A DNA stretch of 63,559 bases, the filler included, from Pirum gemmata (Eukaryota), in NCBI GenBank assembly GCA_002812295.1. It is 17 parts of 17 records of this genome, joined end to end, with 100 filler letters (N's around TTAATTAATTAA, not from the genome) between each part and the next. Parts side by side here need not be neighbours in the genome. Positions count along the whole stretch, not along the records: positions 25,850 to 29,488 come from PDIN01002224.1; positions 29,589 to 33,195 come from PDIN01002225.1; 15 more parts are not named here. One strand, 5' to 3'. The notes under the pieces were generated by a model. It was not told the DNA's origin, searched no databases, and worked only from the letters and a program-made list of their open reading frames with translations. Shown here piece by piece: positions 29,191 through 62,766 of the stretch. Position 1 is the first letter of the stretch. The number at the start of each line of letters is the position of its first letter. The translations under genes were made by a program, and so were the position numbers.

Positions 29191-29384
29191 TCATTTGTTG
29201 GTTTCAAACGTTTGCGTTAGCCAAGTTAACCCGTCCGCTAAGCCTTCATTCCGGGTAGCACATGAAGGTTGCACGTGCCAAGGCCGATCTTTTATTTGCC
29301 GCATTGCAAGTTTTTCGGAGATTTCTTCTAATGACATAGCTTCTGGGAGGTCTTGTTTATTCGCAAATATAAGAATAATCGCAT
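29191..29384 (-). CDS. ARF6: Last exon of an ARF6-like small GTPase
   Basis: [64 protein letters not shown]. It has the NKQD G4 motif and the ARF6-type [21 protein letters not shown] and GLTWL. Acceptor CAG at 29385-29387. Confidence 0.85.
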
Positions 29385-32297
29385 CTGTATTATATCATTA
29401 TTGTTATTATTGTTGTTATTACTATTATTATTATTATTATTATTATTGATAATGTTACATGTTCTTATTATTATTCTAATTTTTTATCNNNNNNNNNNNN
29501 NNNNNNNNNNNNNNNNNNNNNNNNNNNNNNNNTTAATTAATTAANNNNNNNNNNNNNNNNNNNNNNNNNNNNNNNNNNNNNNNNNNNNGTTAGGGTTAGG
29601 GTTAGGGTTAGGGTTAGGGTCAGGGGTAAGGGTTAGGGGGGGTAGGATTTGGTAATAATAGACTATCATAGTCCTAAAGATTTTTAGAACTAGCTCTAGC
29701 TACTAGCTAGTCTAGTAGAGGAGTCACACGTAGCTACAGTCTACTGCTGCAACTACTGCAGTCTAAATATGATAGGTCTACTATGCTAGGTCTACTATGT
29801 ATTGATATCGTCTATTTCATTGCAGTTGTCCTCAATCTTTAATTTGGTACTGTTTACTTTTAAATGTATAATTGAACTTGTTTATAAATACAAAACATTA
29901 AGTATAAAATACCAAAATAATTAAAACATGTCTCTGATAGTTTAACGATAATAATAATTTGGTAGGTTTATTTCAGTTTTTGAACTGGACAACACTATTG
30001 AAAAACACAATATCCGATATTTATTCAGGTACCGTATACGATACAGTCTATGATATCATATATATATATAAATCAAAGTATTTATTTTAATATCATATAT
30101 ACGATAAATCATGTGATATAGGATACTGTGGATTCCCCCGTCTTCGCTTCCCCCGTGTATTAATTAATAGTGTACTATTTTAATATTTTATATTATCATA
30201 TCATAATAAGACTCGCTGCTTTTTTTTCAGTAGACGTCTCTAGGTAGACGTCTAGCTGGATGTAATTTTTCAATGTAATTTTTGTAGACCTAGACAGTAC
30301 CTAGACCTAGCTAGATTGAAGAAGAAATGATAATCTAGTAGCATGGGTCTCTGAGTCTGGGTCTCGAGTAGCATGGGTAGTCTATATTTTAGTCTAGCTA
30401 GACTAAATGCCACTTTTTTTTTTATGAATGATTTATTATAATAATATTATGATACTTTTATTATTTTGCTTTTCATTTATTATGTCACTCATTTATTTGG
30501 TTGGTAATATTATTTAAGTTGACATTTTTAAAAATGAATAAATAGATAATATAATATACCAAATTAAATTAAATGGATTTATATAGTATTAATTCGGTAT
30601 TCTTTATTGTATATTTTATGATGACAGAATTTAGACCTCTACCAGGTAGCTAGTACCAGGTAGCTACTCTAGGGTAGCTACTAGTCTACTAGCTAGCTTA
30701 GCCTAGCTAGCTATGATAGGTCTACTCAGTATCGATATGATACTATCATAGCTATTAGACTATCATACTAGCTAGCTAGACTACTCCTACTAGTCTACTA
30801 GCTAGCTAGCCTACTAGCTAGAGCGGCACTGCTGCGGTATCTATATCTAATATTTATGAGAAACATATCGATATCTATATATATGATATATCAACTATAT
30901 ATCAGCTGATCTATATAATAATTATGATATCGACTGAGAAATAGTGAGAAAAACTGAGAATAGTTCTAAGAATCGATACCAGTATTTAAAAGTACTATTT
31001 ATTTAGTCTACTTATTTAGTTAGATACTTATTATGTTATGTCTAGACTAGACCTATGATTAAAGTCTATGATAATATTTAGTGTTTTTCCATTGTGTTTT
31101 TCCAGTTCAAAAACTGAAATAAAAGTACCAAATTATACAATTTATAGTAATTTATTTTATACTCAAATTATTATAATTAATAAACTATCGGGAATGTTTT
31201 TTAAAAGGTATGTGGCTCAGTCAGTGCTGAGGTGGCTCAGAGAACTCTCAGAGAGTCGAAGAGACTGTCAATTTCTAGTCTACTGTGAGTCTGTGACTGT
31301 CTACACCTAATAGTTTAATTTTTTAATAAATACTATGGACGTGCGTCACGTGACTACTACTAGCTAGGACCTGACTCTAACTAATGGTCTCGAATAATCT
31401 CGATAGCTGTCTGGTAATATTATATAGACTATAGACTGCTATCATATATTGTCAAGATGTTAAACTCTTGCCAAAAGTCACATCTGGCTTCTAACATCGG
31501 GTTCATAATTCATATATACTACAGTATTACTACTAGCTCATAACATTATGATGAGATTGTATATGTAAATATTAATAATATTATTGATGATATATCATTA
31601 TGATGTATCATAATAATTAAAGACCCAGGTAAAAAATCCTGGGGTCTTTCACCCATATTCGATATAGACTAGTACTAATGTAGTCCACTAATGTAGATCT
31701 ACAAAAATTTCATCGCTTTACCAATTACCATATTTTTAATATGTATCATAGTAGCTATCATAGTTGAAACAGTATTTGAACACTTAAAATTTTGAACACT
31801 ATTTGAACAACTATTTGAACAGTAGACCTATGTGAACGCTCCGCTCCCATACGTACCACAGTACTCCACAGCAGCTGCTCCACAGTGGTGGACAGTTGGT
31901 GATAGGAGACCTGCCACAGTGGAAGCCTCAGTGGAAGCCTGGTCTCATACTATGATAAATTGATAATATATCTAGCTAGCTAGCTAGAGTGGCATTACTG
32001 TGGCATTGCTGTATATAATTATGCATAAGATAAGAGCTAAGATAAGTATGATTATAGTATGATTATAATGTATCTCACGAGCTCGCTGCTATCCGATATT
32101 GATATTTTTATCATATGATATTATCTATTAGTAGCTTTTTAGTTATCATAGAATAAGTCATAGAATAACTGATAGGTCTACTAATATCCACATTTTTATA
32201 TGATATGTCATATCAATATAATATCTGTATTATAGACTATCATATTTATATACCCAGTATTCAAGAGGAACGGGCCGCGTTACGGGCGTCTTTTTTT

Positions 32298-32436
32298 TTG
32301 AAGTCCTTGATAAACTTTATATATATCTATATATATAGCAAAAAAGTGGTTATTTTCGCCGCGAAAATAACCACTTTTTTGCTATATATATATCCAAGGA
32401 CTTCAAGAAAGTTTTTTTTACATGAAGTCCTTGATA
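32298..32436. repeat. Perfect 32-bp-arm hairpin flanked by TCAAGGACTTCA/TGAAGTCCTTGA termini
   Basis: 32328-32359 is the exact reverse complement of 32361-32392. TGAAGTCCTTGATA occurs at 32299 and 32423, and CAAGGACTTCAA at 32395. The same terminus forms a mini-palindrome at 36280-36311. Confidence 0.85.
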
Positions 32437-32945
32437 TATGCATTTAATATCATATCTATATTAACCCTAACCCTAACCCTAACCCTAAAGACTCCAAAAA
32501 CTGTCTTTGATCATAGACTAGCTACTAGCTAAGCTAGTAGTGTTTCTACGTATCGATATTATTAACGTATACAATAATTACGATACATGTATAGTCTACG
32601 ATACCACTACGATACCACAGTTCTACAGCTGTTCTACTACTACAGGTTAGAGAGTTTAATACTTTAGAATTCTACTACGATAGTCTAGTACGATAGCTAT
32701 TAGCTAGCTAAGCTATTATCAATATGATATCTCATATCTGATAACTATTATGATATATACAATGATTCATATTAGCAGCTCTAGCTGCAGCTCTAGCTAG
32801 TGTATTTTTCGTTACAAAAATTTCTCGGAATTTTTTTCCAGTATGATATGATTATGATATTATACTGATATTATGATAAAAAAAATCATAAATTAGTCTA
32901 TTACAAAGAGGTACGAGTCCGTACGACTGTACGACCATACGAAAA

Positions 32946-33058
32946 GTACTACCGAATGAGGGGTAACGAATCCACACGATCGTCGATATGACTCCGTGAC
33001 TTCGGCGCTTCGCAGCCCCCATTTCCCCGCAGCATCACTCCTACTTGTAATGGTATAC
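32946..33058 (-). ncRNA. Candidate structured ncRNA (113 nt) downstream of tRNA-Ile, family unknown
   Basis: GC-rich island. The 5' GTATACC pairs with the 3' GGTAGTAC directly before TTTT. Internal helices contain G-U pairs only on this strand. Folded by eye only. Confidence 0.45.
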
Positions 33059-33092
33059 TTACATTAACACTTTCTTTTCTCTCCTTAAGAAA

Positions 33093-33166
33093 TTCCCCCT
33101 GCAGGGGTCGAACCTGCGACCTTGGCGTTATTAGCACCACGCTCTAACCAACTGAGCTAAGGAGGA
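33093..33166 (-). tRNA. tRNA-Ile (anticodon AAT)
   Basis: TCCTCCTTAGCTCAGTTGGTTAGAGCGTGGTGCTAATAACGCCAAGGTCGCAGGTTCGACCCCTGCAGGGGGAA. Acceptor TCCTCCT/AGGGGGA, anticodon arm TGGTG-CTAATAA-CGCCA, T arm GCAGG-TTCGACC-CCTGC. Confidence 0.95.
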
Positions 33167-33585
33167 TAACTAAAAAAACGAAAAAAACAAAACCANNNNN
33201 NNNNNNNNNNNNNNNNNNNNNNNNNNNNNNNNNNNNNNNTTAATTAATTAANNNNNNNNNNNNNNNNNNNNNNNNNNNNNNNNNNNNNNNNNNNNAAAAA
33301 AAAAAACCAAACAGAAAACCAAACAAAAATCTGAAAAATCACTAAATGCTACAATTTTAATAAAAGTACTACCAACTAAAAAACTTTGTTATGAATAAAT
33401 TGGCAGTTTTTAAATAATTTGGCTAGTTAGAAGGTTTTAGAAAAGAAATCTAAAAAAAAAAAAGATTTCTACAGTTTTACCCAGCATGACTGTTAAATTT
33501 TTTTTTTTTTTGAAATATATTAGCACGAACCATTTCAGAGGAACCATTTAGACTATAATTTTTTTTTTTTTTTTTTTCATCAAAT

Positions 33586-34292: not shown

Positions 34293-37093
34293 GATGGCCA
34301 CCTAATTTAGGTATTTAGGTAGTAATGAAAAAATACTAGTATGCATTATTGCTACTATGCTGGCCAGGGGGCGTTCAAATAATACGTCACATCAAAGGGT
34401 AGGTAGGTAGGCGGTATTTGACCAAAAAGAAAACGTCAAGGGGTAGATACATAGATTTGAAGCAGCATTTTACCGAAATTAGGGTTACGTAGTACCTGAA
34501 CGCTCCCTGGCTAGCTAGTAGACTAGAGTTAGCTAAAGTAGACGGTCTAGCTAGGCTAGCTAGCTAGAGCTATCATAGCTGGAGTGGGCTATGATAGTTT
34601 AGCTACTAGCTAGAGCTAGCTACTAGTAGTAGTGCTGCAGCTGCTGCTATCCCCGTCTAGCTATCATAGCTATATGATAGCTAGGTCTAGCTAGCTGGCT
34701 AGCTCTGGCTAGCTACTGGTATAAGTTATAACAATTAGCAGTTAAATAGCTTAAAATAGTAAATGTAATTATAATATATACCAATTAAAGTAATAATATT
34801 AACATTAATAGTAATAAAAACATAAAATCGGAAAAGTTCTGGCAGGTGTTCGGTAATATCATAATAAAATGACGTCATCTCACCCCTACTATATCATATC
34901 ATAAATTCATAATCAGTATCGATTGAGTCTAACTAGAGTCTAACTAGACTCTAACTAGCTAGTAGTACATTAATTAATAATAATAAAAAGGAAAATACCA
35001 AATAAATACCCTAGACCAAATAATTAAATAATATTATAATCTATAAATTATAATAATTATTATAATAAATTTAGGCTATCTATTAGATAAATTTACTTTT
35101 TTTAATTAATTAAAAGCAATAAATTAATAAAAATAAAACCACATATCATAATATAATCATTTTTATGATTAAATTATGGATAATTATCGATAAAAAAGAA
35201 ATATTGGTTTTTTTACTAGCCAGCTATGGTTTTTTTAATAACCTTCGTTCCTAGCTACTAACTAGAGTATCATATTATCTGGCTTTATAAATATTGTTAA
35301 ACGTTGTATCCGATATGATAGTAGTTGTAGTCAGTTGTTGTGGATATTGTTTTTTTATCTCCAACTACCTAGTAATAATCCATATCATATGTGAGGATAA
35401 TGTGTCTGACTTCTATCATAAAGAATTTTCGGTAGTTTTGATATTGATTCATCTCAAATCATTACTGGTGGTCTACTAAGCTACTACTCTACTAGAGATA
35501 TCAGATAGTAGATACCTCTTAGCTAGGTAGCTAACCGTAGCTTAGCGTCCTTCTAGCACGCGGTGATAGTCTCTAGTCTCTTTCTTGAAGCGAGACGAGC
35601 TTTGAAAACTTTTTGAAAATGTACACACATGTATGTAAAAAAGTGTATGCATATGAAAACTTTTTGGAAATGCGCTTTTCATTTATTTTGTCATTCTTCC
35701 GAGTATTTATTTGGTTGGTTGTAATTTTTTAACTGACATTGTTAAATGAATAAATGGATAATAAAATATACCAAATTAAATGAAATGGATTTATATTATA
35801 TTAATTTGGTAGTCTTTATTGTATATTTTATGATGAAAAAACAATGAAACCGAAAATCGCTGGCTTGCGCCATTTTAGGTTTTTAATATTATCGATAGCA
35901 GTGGTGGGTATACTACATGACGTAATCTATTAATAAATGCTCTCAACGCTATAATATGAAAAGTAGTATTTTGGCCCCTCTCAATTTTGACTTACTATTA
36001 ATTGGTGCGTATCTTAGTTACTATATATAGTAATTTTAAAGTAGACAGGGACAATTTAATGACGTCAATATCAGTTTTTTTAAAAAAAAGGCTCGAAAAA
36101 ATAATAGTAAAATTCGATCTACAGTCACTTTGTTAAAAAAGAAAGGAATGATGAAAAAAAGCACTCTAGATCCGAAAAAAAACAAGGAAAAATGAAAGAT
36201 CGATTCGATGATTGGTGTTGATTTTGGTATCATGTCAATGATGTCATTGAAAAAAAAAAAAAATGAAAAAAAAAATAGTTATCAAGGACTTCAAATTTGA
36301 AGTCCTTGTTATAATATTATACTCTTGTTATCATAATATTATACCTGCAACACAAATATTTTAAAAAAAACAAAACTTCAATGCTATATTGAATCTATTG
36401 AATCATAAAACACTAAAAAGTGACAATTTCACCTTGTTTTTCTTGAAAAATCCTAAAATTTGAGCTATTTTTTATTAAAATTGGACCATTTACGGTTCTC
36501 CAAGGTACGTTTCTGCACAAAAAAAGTTCATTTTTTAATTAGTAGAATGACCAACTGTTACAGTCTTACAGAACTGTCTACAAAAACGATTATTTTAGTG
36601 AGTTCAACTATGAATTGTAAATGTTATTGCAAATGCAACAAAGGTAGATGCTATGTTTGTGATAGTTGTGTATCATAATAAATATCCATATTTACATATT
36701 TATAAATGCTTATCGATACTTTATCGATACCTAAAAATTTTTAAGAGAGAGGATCTATAATAAAAAAAGGTCCATAACACAGGACCATAGGGGTTTACAA
36801 CTTTACAAGACCAAAATAAATATGAGGAGAACGCTAAGTGAAAGTCACGAAATTTCGGTGGATGGACGAGAGGGGAACAACCTCCCCCCCCCACACCCAT
36901 CAAGAATAAGAGAAGAGAATAGCAATATAATAANNNNNNNNNNNNNNNNNNNNNNNNNNNNNNNNNNNNNNNNNNNNTTAATTAATTAANNNNNNNNNNN
37001 NNNNNNNNNNNNNNNNNNNNNNNNNNNNNNNNNTATTATCATTATCATTATTACACATCAATACTAATGTTAATATAATGTTATTGTTAATAG

Positions 37094-61600: not shown

Positions 61601-62614
61601 CACTCCCTTGTCCTATTAAAGTTAAAAATTTGATTTTCGCTTGTTATATAGATTAGAAATAGACTATTGGGTTGTTCCACTGTTGTTCCACTGTTGTTCC
61701 TTTTATTTTTAAAATTTTTTAAAAATAATAATATTGTATCAATAGATTACAGCGTAGACGGTAGACAGCGTAGCTGTCACTTGCCTATCAGTGGTTTCAA
61801 GACTCAAGTTTATTTTTTTATTTAGCTTACAGTTAGTATAGGATAGGCCTGTTAGTATGTATGATAAGAAAACTGTTAGTAGCTTGCTAGCTAGCTAGCT
61901 ATCGATAAGACTATACGTGTTATTCCTGTGGTTGTTTGTTATTCTTGTGGTTGTAGTCTTGTAGGGCTACCCACGGTGGGTCATAGACTAATGTAGCTAG
62001 CTACTACTAACTAGTCCTATCGATAGCTGGCTAGCTAGCTAGTAGTAGGAGCTAGCTATCAATACATAAAACAGCTATCATAATATTGTTCATAATATAA
62101 AAAGTCTAGCTTTATTTTATAATTAAAAATAGACTAGTATGACAGAATAGAAAAATAAAAATGCACCTACTAGTAGCTAGCTAGCTACTGGTGGTCTCGC
62201 CTCTGGTCTTTTCTACATTGACCTCAACCAAAATCCTAACCCCTTACTAACCCTATATATAACCCTACCCCTACCCCTAACCCTACCCCTAACCCTAACC
62301 CTACCCCTAACCCTAACCCTACCCCTAACCCTAACCCTAAATGTATCATATTATATAGTTTTTTAACGTTTGTTCTTGAAATAATTTTTAGTTTGACCAA
62401 GGACTTCAAAAAAAAAGACTTGGTTTGACTCATAAAAAGAGAGGACGAGTCTAGCTACTACTAGCTAGCTAGCTAGCTAGCTAGAGCTAGAGGTAGCTAG
62501 TCTAGCTAGGAATTTTTTTCATTACTATATATGAATGTGGTTCTCCAAAAATAGAATTCAAATGGATAAAACTATCTAAAAAAGGTAACTCTATAAGTAT
62601 TTTTGGTAAACTAA

Positions 62615-62766
62615 GGGAGCGTTCAAATACTACGTAACGCCAATTCCCAGTCAAATACAGCTTCAAATACCCCTACCTAGTACCTACCTACCCCTCGACG
62701 TTAATTTCCGGTCAAATACCACCTACCTACCTACTCCTTGACGTGACGTATTATTTGAACGCTCCC
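62615..62766. mobile_element. MITE family B, PIF/Harbinger (Tourist)-like, 152 bp
   Basis: TAA|GGGAGCGTTCAAATA ... TATTTGAACGCTCCC|TAA (3-bp TAA TSD, GGG ends). Copies at 61463-61607, about 3285-3412, 15398-15528 and 34367-34507; subfamily ends at 3599-3641 and 14680-14756. Confidence 0.92.

What the first reader, a model, noticed from the sequence alone, without database searches (positions are those of the whole stretch)
30712..30820. Intergenic DNA parses into TA-delimited words equal to local MITE termini: stacked excision footprints
Seen: this tract reads TA-TGA-TA-GGTC-TA-CTCAG-TA-TCGA-TA-TGA-TA-C-TA-TCA-TA-GC-TA-T-TA-GAC-TA-TCA-TA-C-TA-GC-TA-GC-TA-GAC-TA-CTCC-TA-C-TA-GTC-TA. The small vocabulary recurs in many contigs as reverse-complement pairs (TCA/TGA, GAC/GTC, GACC/GGTC, CTC/GAG, TCGA). 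Several words equal the ends of TA-flanked elements in this window: GAC..GTC (14917-15213), GACC (8475), TCA..TGA (32299, 32423, 36280), and TCG..CGA joined via CG to TCGA (families A and C). Known: Tc1/mariner excision leaves TA + 2-3 terminal nt + TA (Sleeping Beauty TACAGTA/TACTGTA), which regenerates targets. Inference: much of this intergenic DNA was written by repeated insert-and-excise cycles and records past transposon traffic.
Basis: partly seen in the sequence, partly recalled or inferred. Interest (0 to 1): 0.85.

Follow-up and report, generated by a model that had tools for sequence, protein, structure and literature searches.

The report
Stacked transposon scars between genes
The non-coding DNA of a single-celled relative of animals is strewn with a few short TA-bounded words that match the ends of its small jumping elements, and these are most likely scars left each time an element cut itself out, which would make a known side-effect of transposition a measurable source of new DNA.

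Summary
The parse of 30712-30820 is exact, and a contig of a public run matches it without differences. The window is 17 short scaffolds of Pirum gemmata (ichthyosporean), packed with TA-flanked MITEs. In 30.6 kb of masked non-coding DNA, words between two TAs far exceed local shuffles: TCA/TGA 77 vs 17, GAC/GTC 58 vs 11, TCGA 20 vs 1, GC 92 vs 23. The five most enriched of 28 three-letter pairs are all local TIR ends. The words are strand-balanced, and the three-letter ones do not sit in tandem, which argues against slippage. One MITE copy carries the predicted exact TCATA insertion at a TA (1 of 16 insertions of 3-7 nt); a second is inferred. Accumulated Tc1/mariner-type excision footprints fit best (0.75). 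Corrections: CTC/GAG is not enriched; recognisable words make only 4-5% of non-coding DNA (12% of this scaffold); GC and G/C runs are partly microsatellite; the tract holds a 21-nt duplication. No transposase, allele pair or excision event was seen. Footprints are textbook; build-up on this scale was not found in print, but this scan already noted it in algae and diatoms with other words.

The parts
30712..30820 (.). Focal tract of TA-delimited words (wider tract about 30633-30821)
   Evidence: Parse exact; 15 core words vs 3.1 in shuffles; matched by a contig of run X1 without differences
30678..30698 (+). 21-nt direct repeat, second copy at 30787-30807: local duplication inside the tract
   Evidence: Longest direct repeat 21 vs 14.0 in word shuffles, p about 0.01
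30464..30630 (+). Family A MITE copy that lacks its last ~17 bases and abuts the tract
   Evidence: Alignment with 21 other hits; summed contig depth about 4.4e6 vs 350-1300 in neighbouring unique bins; 80 contigs continue into the missing end, which reads ...GCACGA then TA
29808..30010 (+). Family C MITE, TA|TCG ... CAA|TA
   Evidence: summed depth up to 3.3e6
14919..15211 (.). Family G element, 20-bp perfect TIR, GAC..GTC ends, TA on both sides; likely source of GAC/GTC/GACC/GGTC/GACTC words
8477..8658 (.). Degenerate G-like element (GAC at one end, TAC at the other), TA-flanked
36282..36309 (.). Family H mini-element made only of TIRs, TCA end; likely source family of TCA/TGA words
32393..32434 (.). 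Family H element in the focal scaffold (a further TCA-type end at 32310)
32338..32382 (.). 45-bp hairpin element with GCA..TGC ends, TA-flanked, between the H ends
34857..34863 (+). TA-TCA-TA inside a family F copy where two other copies have a single TA: exact 5-nt footprint-type insertion
39621..39627 (+). TA-TCA-TA at the end of a family A copy nested in a family C copy: second, inferred TCATA insertion
   Evidence: needs one C-to-T change in the host copy to make the original TA, so weaker

Best explanation
The TA-bounded words are likely stacked excision footprints of Tc1/mariner-type cut-and-paste elements, whose small non-coding copies with TA flanks are abundant in this genome. Shown: the words are enriched, strand-balanced, absent from long ORFs, equal to local element ends or to joins of a left and a right end, and one exact word-plus-TA insertion sits in a repeat copy. 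Inferred from known Tc1/mariner chemistry: insertion doubles a TA; excision leaves 3' overhangs of up to three terminal bases; end joining keeps a left-end prefix and a right-end suffix. TCA ends would give TCA/TGA and TCAGA/TCTGA; GAC ends would give GAC/GTC, GACC/GGTC, GACTC/GAGTC, GC and G/C; TCG ends would join through CG to TCGA, or give TCCGA/TCGGA and 2+1 joins that again read TCA/TGA. Each cycle adds 3-7 bp and one more TA target, so a site would be hit again and scars would pile up. Slippage and short duplications likely then expand the GC and G/C words into (TAGC)n and (TAG)n runs.
For: (1) The top five of 28 three-letter word pairs under local shuffling (TCA/TGA, GAC/GTC, TCG/CGA, TTG/CAA, GGG/CCC) are all termini of TA-flanked elements in the window; a rough, after-the-fact hypergeometric value for the top four falling among 7 termini is 0.0017. 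(2) Words whose first and last bases are complementary are enriched (O/E 1.79 at 3 nt, 1.72 at 4 nt) and others are not (0.96, 1.03); seven other flanking dinucleotides show no such contrast. (3) Longer enriched words are left+right joins of the same ends. (4) Orientation is balanced: TCA 67/TGA 65, GAC 39/GTC 39. (5) In 31 word-rich tracts same-word neighbours are 159 vs 156 in word shuffles; TCA, TGA, GAC and GTC have 0 same-word neighbours there. (6) Exact TCATA insertion in 1 of 3 family F copies; chance that at least 1 of the 16 insertions of 3-7 nt reads as a core word is about 0.017 (0.07 with single G/C allowed). (7) 43 of 48 hand-picked element ends are TA-flanked, and 14 of the 43 have a vocabulary word just outside, against 15% background (p 0.003); core words are 26/kb next to ends, 9.8/kb in background and 7 in 5,210 nt inside 29 copies. 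(8) MITE count and word density correlate over 17 scaffolds (Spearman 0.64, p 0.005; 0.54 without GC). (9) Sleeping Beauty leaves CAG, CTG, C, G, CG, CA, TG or nothing between TAs (10.1101/659086, passages); the GAC analogues GAC, GTC, G, C, GC are the enriched ones here.
Against: 15 of 16 insertions of 3-7 nt in repeat copies are not vocabulary footprints, and 15 of all 34 insertions of 2 nt or more are plain tandem duplications. None of the 12 indels shown by the read-laying tool is a footprint (115 more were not shown). The 2-nt words GA/TC, which the Sleeping Beauty spectrum would predict for both GAC and TCA/TCG ends, are depleted (33 vs 49.6). Two local termini give no enriched word (GCA/TGC 8 vs 15; TTC/GAA 9 vs 22), and under the Markov ranking CAG/CTG, not a local terminus, ranks fourth. 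The most abundant families (A, C) end in TCG/TTG, yet TCG/CGA is only weakly enriched (12 vs 5.7). One scaffold (48218-52964) has 14.6 words/kb and no listed MITE copy. No transposase domain among 138 frames scanned in the window. No filled/empty/footprint alleles seen.
Confidence: 0.75

Rival explanations
1. Cryptic simplicity: replication slippage and short duplications in AT-rich DNA spread a few motifs, and the match to element ends is coincidence.
For: TRF finds (CTAG)n arrays at several places and long (TAG)n runs; 15 of 34 insertions in repeat copies are tandem duplications; the focal tract has a 21-nt direct repeat. This probably does explain part of the GC and G/C counts.
Against: Enrichment survives masking of all TRF arrays; three-letter words have no same-word neighbours in tracts and occur equally on both strands; slippage does not predict complementary first and last bases or a match to TIR ends.
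Confidence: 0.1
2. A repair process unrelated to excision (templated or snap-back synthesis at breaks, as in polymerase-theta end joining; recalled) writes short quasi-palindromes at TA-rich sites, and MITEs simply insert there.
For: The words are quasi-palindromes; MITE ends lie in word-rich flanks, as expected if elements target such DNA; an earlier scan note on an alga reports an element landing in scars rather than making them (unchecked).
Against: Longest inverted repeats in 13 tests on tracts are not above word shuffles; only a few of the possible quasi-palindromes are enriched, and they are the local termini.
Confidence: 0.08
3. The words are protein-binding motifs kept by selection (TATGATA contains a GATA core; TATCGATA equals the Drosophila DRE motif; both recalled).
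For: TATGATA/TATCATA and TATCGATA are among the most enriched words.
Against: The base after TATGATA is T 48, G 36, A 30, C 18, not the purine of WGATAR; TGATA follows TA 132 times while AGATA follows TA 9 times; GAC/GTC and GC are unrelated to GATA; scaffolds with long ORFs and no MITE have 0-1.2 words/kb.
Confidence: 0.05

Closest known systems
Sleeping Beauty and other Tc1/mariner excision footprints (PMC6943129, passages; bioRxiv 10.1101/659086, passages)
   Same: TA + up to 3 terminal bases + TA; both orientations; shorter 1-nt and 1+1 forms beside the canonical 3-nt forms.
   Different: Known from single experimental donor sites; here many families' scars appear stacked in natural non-coding DNA. 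The 2-nt forms seen for Sleeping Beauty are depleted here, and longer joins (3+1, 2+2, 3+2) are enriched.
Stowaway MITE footprints and re-insertion in the Triticeae beta-amylase intron (PMC1925063, passages)
   Same: Natural footprints of 1-4 bp TIR fragments inside the TA duplication; a new element inserted at the TA next to an older footprint.
   Different: One site and two or three events; here tracts of up to about 40 words and a window-wide word bias.
DNA transposon excisions between two rice species (PMC4423477, passages)
   Same: Excision scars as a source of non-coding change, mostly from MITEs.
   Different: Rice scars are mostly deletions and foreign filler (8 of 94 perfect); here the scars look short and stereotyped.
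Repeat-rich, AT-biased Pirum gemmata genome (PMC5560861, section 9 and passages)
   Same: Recent TE invasions; TEs plus simple repeats up to 34% of the genome; fragmented assembly.
   Different: Annotation there was by RepBase matching; the passages read mention neither these MITE families nor footprints.

Membership tests
Tc1/mariner excision footprints | Word between two TAs equals terminal bases of a TA-flanked TIR element of the same genome | tested here: met
   Top five of 28 three-letter pairs are local termini; two local termini give no enriched word
Tc1/mariner excision footprints | Left-end and right-end forms occur about equally | tested here: met
   TCA 67/TGA 65; GAC 39/GTC 39
Tc1/mariner excision footprints | Arises as an insertion of word+TA at a single ancestral TA | tested here: inconclusive
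   1 clean case of 16 insertions of 3-7 nt, 1 more inferred; 0 of 12 displayed of 127 indels in laid contigs
Tc1/mariner excision footprints | Footprint spectrum like that of studied elements (3-nt, 2-nt, 1-nt, 1+1) | tested here: inconclusive
   3-nt, 1-nt and 1+1 forms enriched; 2-nt GA/TC depleted
Tc1/mariner excision footprints | Filled, empty and footprint alleles at one locus | not testable with these tools
   Only one run holds the stretch, as contigs; no whole genome held
Tc1/mariner-type MITEs (families A, C, F, G, H, I, D) | Short, non-coding, TIRs, TA target-site duplication, multi-copy | tested here: met
   43 of 48 hand-picked ends TA-flanked; copies and depth
Tc1/mariner-type MITEs (families A, C, F, G, H, I, D) | A DD34D/E transposase with matching TIRs in the genome | not testable with these tools
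   None in 138 frames of the window scanned against Pfam; rest of the genome not held
Microsatellite / cryptic simplicity | Same motif repeated in tandem on one strand | tested here: not met
   Not met for TCA/TGA and GAC/GTC; (CTAG)n and (TAG)n arrays do exist

The most novel reading that the evidence does not exclude
In Pirum gemmata, insert-and-excise cycles are a self-feeding writer of non-coding DNA: every excision adds a few bases and a new TA target, scars seed the (TAGC)n and (TAG)n microsatellites, and together they account for a large share of the low-complexity DNA behind this genome's expansion. The word spectrum is then a readable record of past transposon families, predicting CCG-, TGC- and CC(A/T)-ended families not seen in this window (CCGG 4 vs 0.3, TGCA 5 vs 1.5, CCAGG/CCTGG 2 vs 0.3).
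Probability: 0.3. Interest if true: 0.75.

Novelty: new variant of a known kind. Interest (0 to 1): 0.5.

Why it matters
Footprints are usually treated as rare local scars. If they pile up until they set the commonest short words of a genome's non-coding DNA, then (a) excision is a measurable source of new sequence and of genome growth, (b) word counts can date and identify transposon families that have left, and give excision rates that insertion counts cannot, and (c) motif searches in such genomes will report scars as regulatory elements. This would be a case in a unicellular relative of animals, where the nature of the expanded intergenic DNA is stated to be uncharacterised (PMC5560861, passages).

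Tried and rejected
No whole genome is held, so all counts are for this window. A family A motif found 0 matches in metagenome and viral contigs. No RNA holder listed; this says nothing on expression. Laid contigs showed no allele inside the tract, and only 12 of 127 indels were displayed, all within MITE copies and none a footprint. Run X3 (another organism) gave 11 short partial matches, not used. CpG decay as the cause of the TTG/TCA variants of family A ends was considered; PMC11244446 (passages) reports no DNMT1/3 in ichthyosporeans other than Amoebidium, so I do not rely on it. Family B (GGG ends; TAA on both sides of the copy at 62615-62766, PIF/Harbinger-like by recall) was not counted as a TA element. 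A possible GAC and GACTC insertion in the family A copy near 2190 did not align cleanly and was dropped. A first blind TIR scan was swamped by telomere-type repeats and by ends of neighbouring copies; element ends were therefore picked by hand. The RepBase table in supplement 6 of PMC5560861 (first 22 of 418 'mariner' places seen) was uninformative. The tract definition uses the vocabulary, so it tests word order, not enrichment. Rfam found nothing on the tract. Supplements of bioRxiv papers could not be seen and might hold footprint frequencies.

Full report
Setting. The window is 17 scaffolds of about 3.6 kb joined by N spacers, 26-34% G+C. The ORF at 54763-56262 equals a protein labelled Pgem_evm1s5783 at 427 of 428 residues apart from two gaps that look like annotated introns, so the organism is Pirum gemmata, an ichthyosporean. 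No whole genome is held; every count below is for this window. A published account says TEs and simple repeats make up to 34% of this genome, with recent invasions by few families (PMC5560861, section 9).

Observation. A 431-base contig of run X1 covers 30690-31120 with no difference. The tract has 15 core words against 3.1 in 1000 dinucleotide shuffles. I counted TA-x-TA words under four levels of masking. At the strictest (30,563 nt; local dinucleotide shuffles) TCA/TGA is 77 vs 17.4, GAC/GTC 58 vs 11.2, TCGA 20 vs 1.0, GC 92 vs 22.9, TCAA/TTGA 16 vs 5.2, GACC/GGTC 6 vs 1.5, TCAGA/TCTGA 6 vs 0.8, C/G 235 vs 185. The words are absent from 10,584 nt of long ORFs.

The elements. Self-comparison gives many short repeat families. 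Of 48 ends picked by hand, 43 are flanked by TA. Termini: family A TTG 8, TAG 5, TCG 2, TCA 2, other 4; family C TCG 6, TTG 2; G GAC 3 of 4; H TCA 3 of 5; I GCA 2; F GTA 4; D GGG 2; E CTA 2. Contigs laid on a truncated A copy continue into an end reading CGA then TA (80 contigs), so TCG/CGA is the usual A end beyond this window too. Summed contig depth over A and C is 3-4 million against 350-1300 in neighbouring unique bins; this is no copy number but marks very abundant families. No transposase domain was found in 7 long ORFs and 131 of 177 shorter frames (the 46 left out are those long ORFs or frames overlapping them).

Words against ends. Under local shuffling the five most enriched of 28 three-letter pairs are TCA/TGA, GAC/GTC, TCG/CGA, TTG/CAA and GGG/CCC; all are local termini. 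A rough value for the top four lying among 7 termini is 0.0017, computed after the fact. Under the Markov ranking, CAG/CTG, not a local end, is fourth, and GCA and TTC ends give no enriched word. A test free of element boundaries agrees: words whose first and last bases pair are enriched (O/E 1.79 and 1.72 at 3 and 4 nt), others are not (0.96, 1.03), and seven other flanks lack the contrast. The longer enriched words read as left prefix plus right suffix: GAC+C, G+GTC, GAC+TC, TCA+GA, TC+TGA, TC+GA, TCG+GA.

Against slippage. Strands are balanced (TCA 67, TGA 65, GAC 39, GTC 39). In 31 word-rich tracts, same-word neighbours number 159 against 156 in word shuffles, and the three-letter words have none. 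Slippage still contributes: (CTAG)n and (TAG)n arrays exist, and the focal tract has a 21-nt direct repeat (30678-30698, 30787-30807; p about 0.01), the only one of 12 tracts tested to stand out.

Direct test. Among 34 insertions of 2 nt or more in repeat copies, 9 can be written as TA-x-TA and 15 are tandem duplications. One is the predicted event: a family F copy has TA-TCA-TA at 34857-34863 where two other copies have one TA. The chance that at least one of the 16 insertions of 3-7 nt reads as a core word is about 0.017; the other 15 do not. The only other 5-nt insertion is also TA-NNN-TA (TAA). A second TCATA is inferred at 39621-39627, at the end of an A copy nested in a C copy, with one extra assumed substitution. 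Laid contigs showed 12 of 127 indels, none a footprint.

Clustering. A vocabulary word lies just outside 14 of 43 TA-flanked ends against 15% background (p 0.003); density is 26/kb beside ends, 9.8/kb in background, and 7 words in 5,210 nt inside 29 copies. MITE count and word density correlate across 17 scaffolds (0.64), with one word-rich scaffold lacking listed copies. This fits repeated use of the same TA-rich sites but cannot tell cause from target preference.

Mechanism. From established chemistry: Tc1/mariner elements duplicate TA, are cut a few bases inside the ends, and end joining leaves the first or last 2-4 bases between two TAs (PMC6943129, passages); Sleeping Beauty also leaves C, G, CG, CA, TG or nothing (10.1101/659086, passages). 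Inferred for this genome: 3-nt overhangs whose outer bases pair (TCA, GAC) give the 3-nt words; TCG overhangs pair through CG and give TCGA; trimmed or filled joins give the rest; each cycle adds 3-7 bp and one more target. The depletion of GA/TC (33 vs 49.6) is not explained. Which family made TCA/TGA is open: H ends directly, or the far more abundant TCG families by 2+1 joins.

Scale. Excess words cover 4.3-5.0% of non-coding DNA, 12% of the focal scaffold and about 53% of the tract. Decayed scars are missed, so these are lower bounds, but 'much of the intergenic DNA' is not shown.

Novelty. Footprints and re-insertion beside a footprint are known (PMC1925063, passages); rice excisions are mostly messier (PMC4423477, passages). 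Eight searches of the held library (listings read) returned no report of footprints dominating a genome's short words, nor of these MITEs in Pirum; most subscription papers are outside that library. This scan's earlier notes describe the same pattern in algae and diatoms with TA-CC(W)GG-TA and GGTACC words (unchecked by me, seen after my own reading was fixed). The case here adds a holozoan, a different vocabulary tied to several families, and one exact insertion. Verdict: real; most likely stacked excision footprints (0.75); a new variant of a known kind; interest 0.5.

Noticed in passing
window 40919-43480 (-): 853-aa ORF with 9 EsV-1-7 cysteine-rich motifs (PF19114), a run of ERRGRKPK-type repeats and a poly-Q tail.
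   Followed up: partly
window 23142-24626 (-): Intronless 494-aa glycoside hydrolase family 17 with a weak carbohydrate-binding domain; nearest hit only 32% identical, a Pirum paralogue. Candidate for lateral origin, untested.
   Followed up: partly
window 46089-47831 (-): Intronless 580-aa ORF with a P-loop (GTARQGKST) and coiled tail that looks like a guanylate-binding/atlastin-type GTPase by eye; no Pfam family at E 0.001.
   Followed up: partly
window 3965-6354, 8734-8924, 20023-20567, 62230-62340: Many internal (TTAGGG)n arrays in both orientations, several facing each other across ~500 bp, plus variant arrays (TTAGCG, TTAAGG); some lie inside long inverted repeats (20116-20639).
   Followed up: no
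window 39362-39660: Family A copy nested in a family C copy; families A and C share similar ends (TCGTG/TCGTC...TTTCA), suggesting one transposase lineage.
   Followed up: partly
window 62615-62766, 61463-61607, 34367-34507, 3285-3416, 15402-15533: Family B, ~150 bp, GGGAGCG ends with TAA on both sides of one copy and internal (TACC)n blocks: PIF/Harbinger-like MITE (label recalled).
   Followed up: partly
window, family A ends: The second and third bases of family A ends vary (TTG, TAG, TCG, TCA) while the next nine are conserved; unexplained in a lineage reported to lack DNMT1/3.
   Followed up: partly
window 11804-12598, 18084-18269, 29194-29394: Exons of Fcf2, an RRM protein and an Arf-family GTPase.
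   Followed up: no
scaffold 29589-33195: Holds one tRNA-Ile(AAT) gene and no protein family hit.
   Followed up: no
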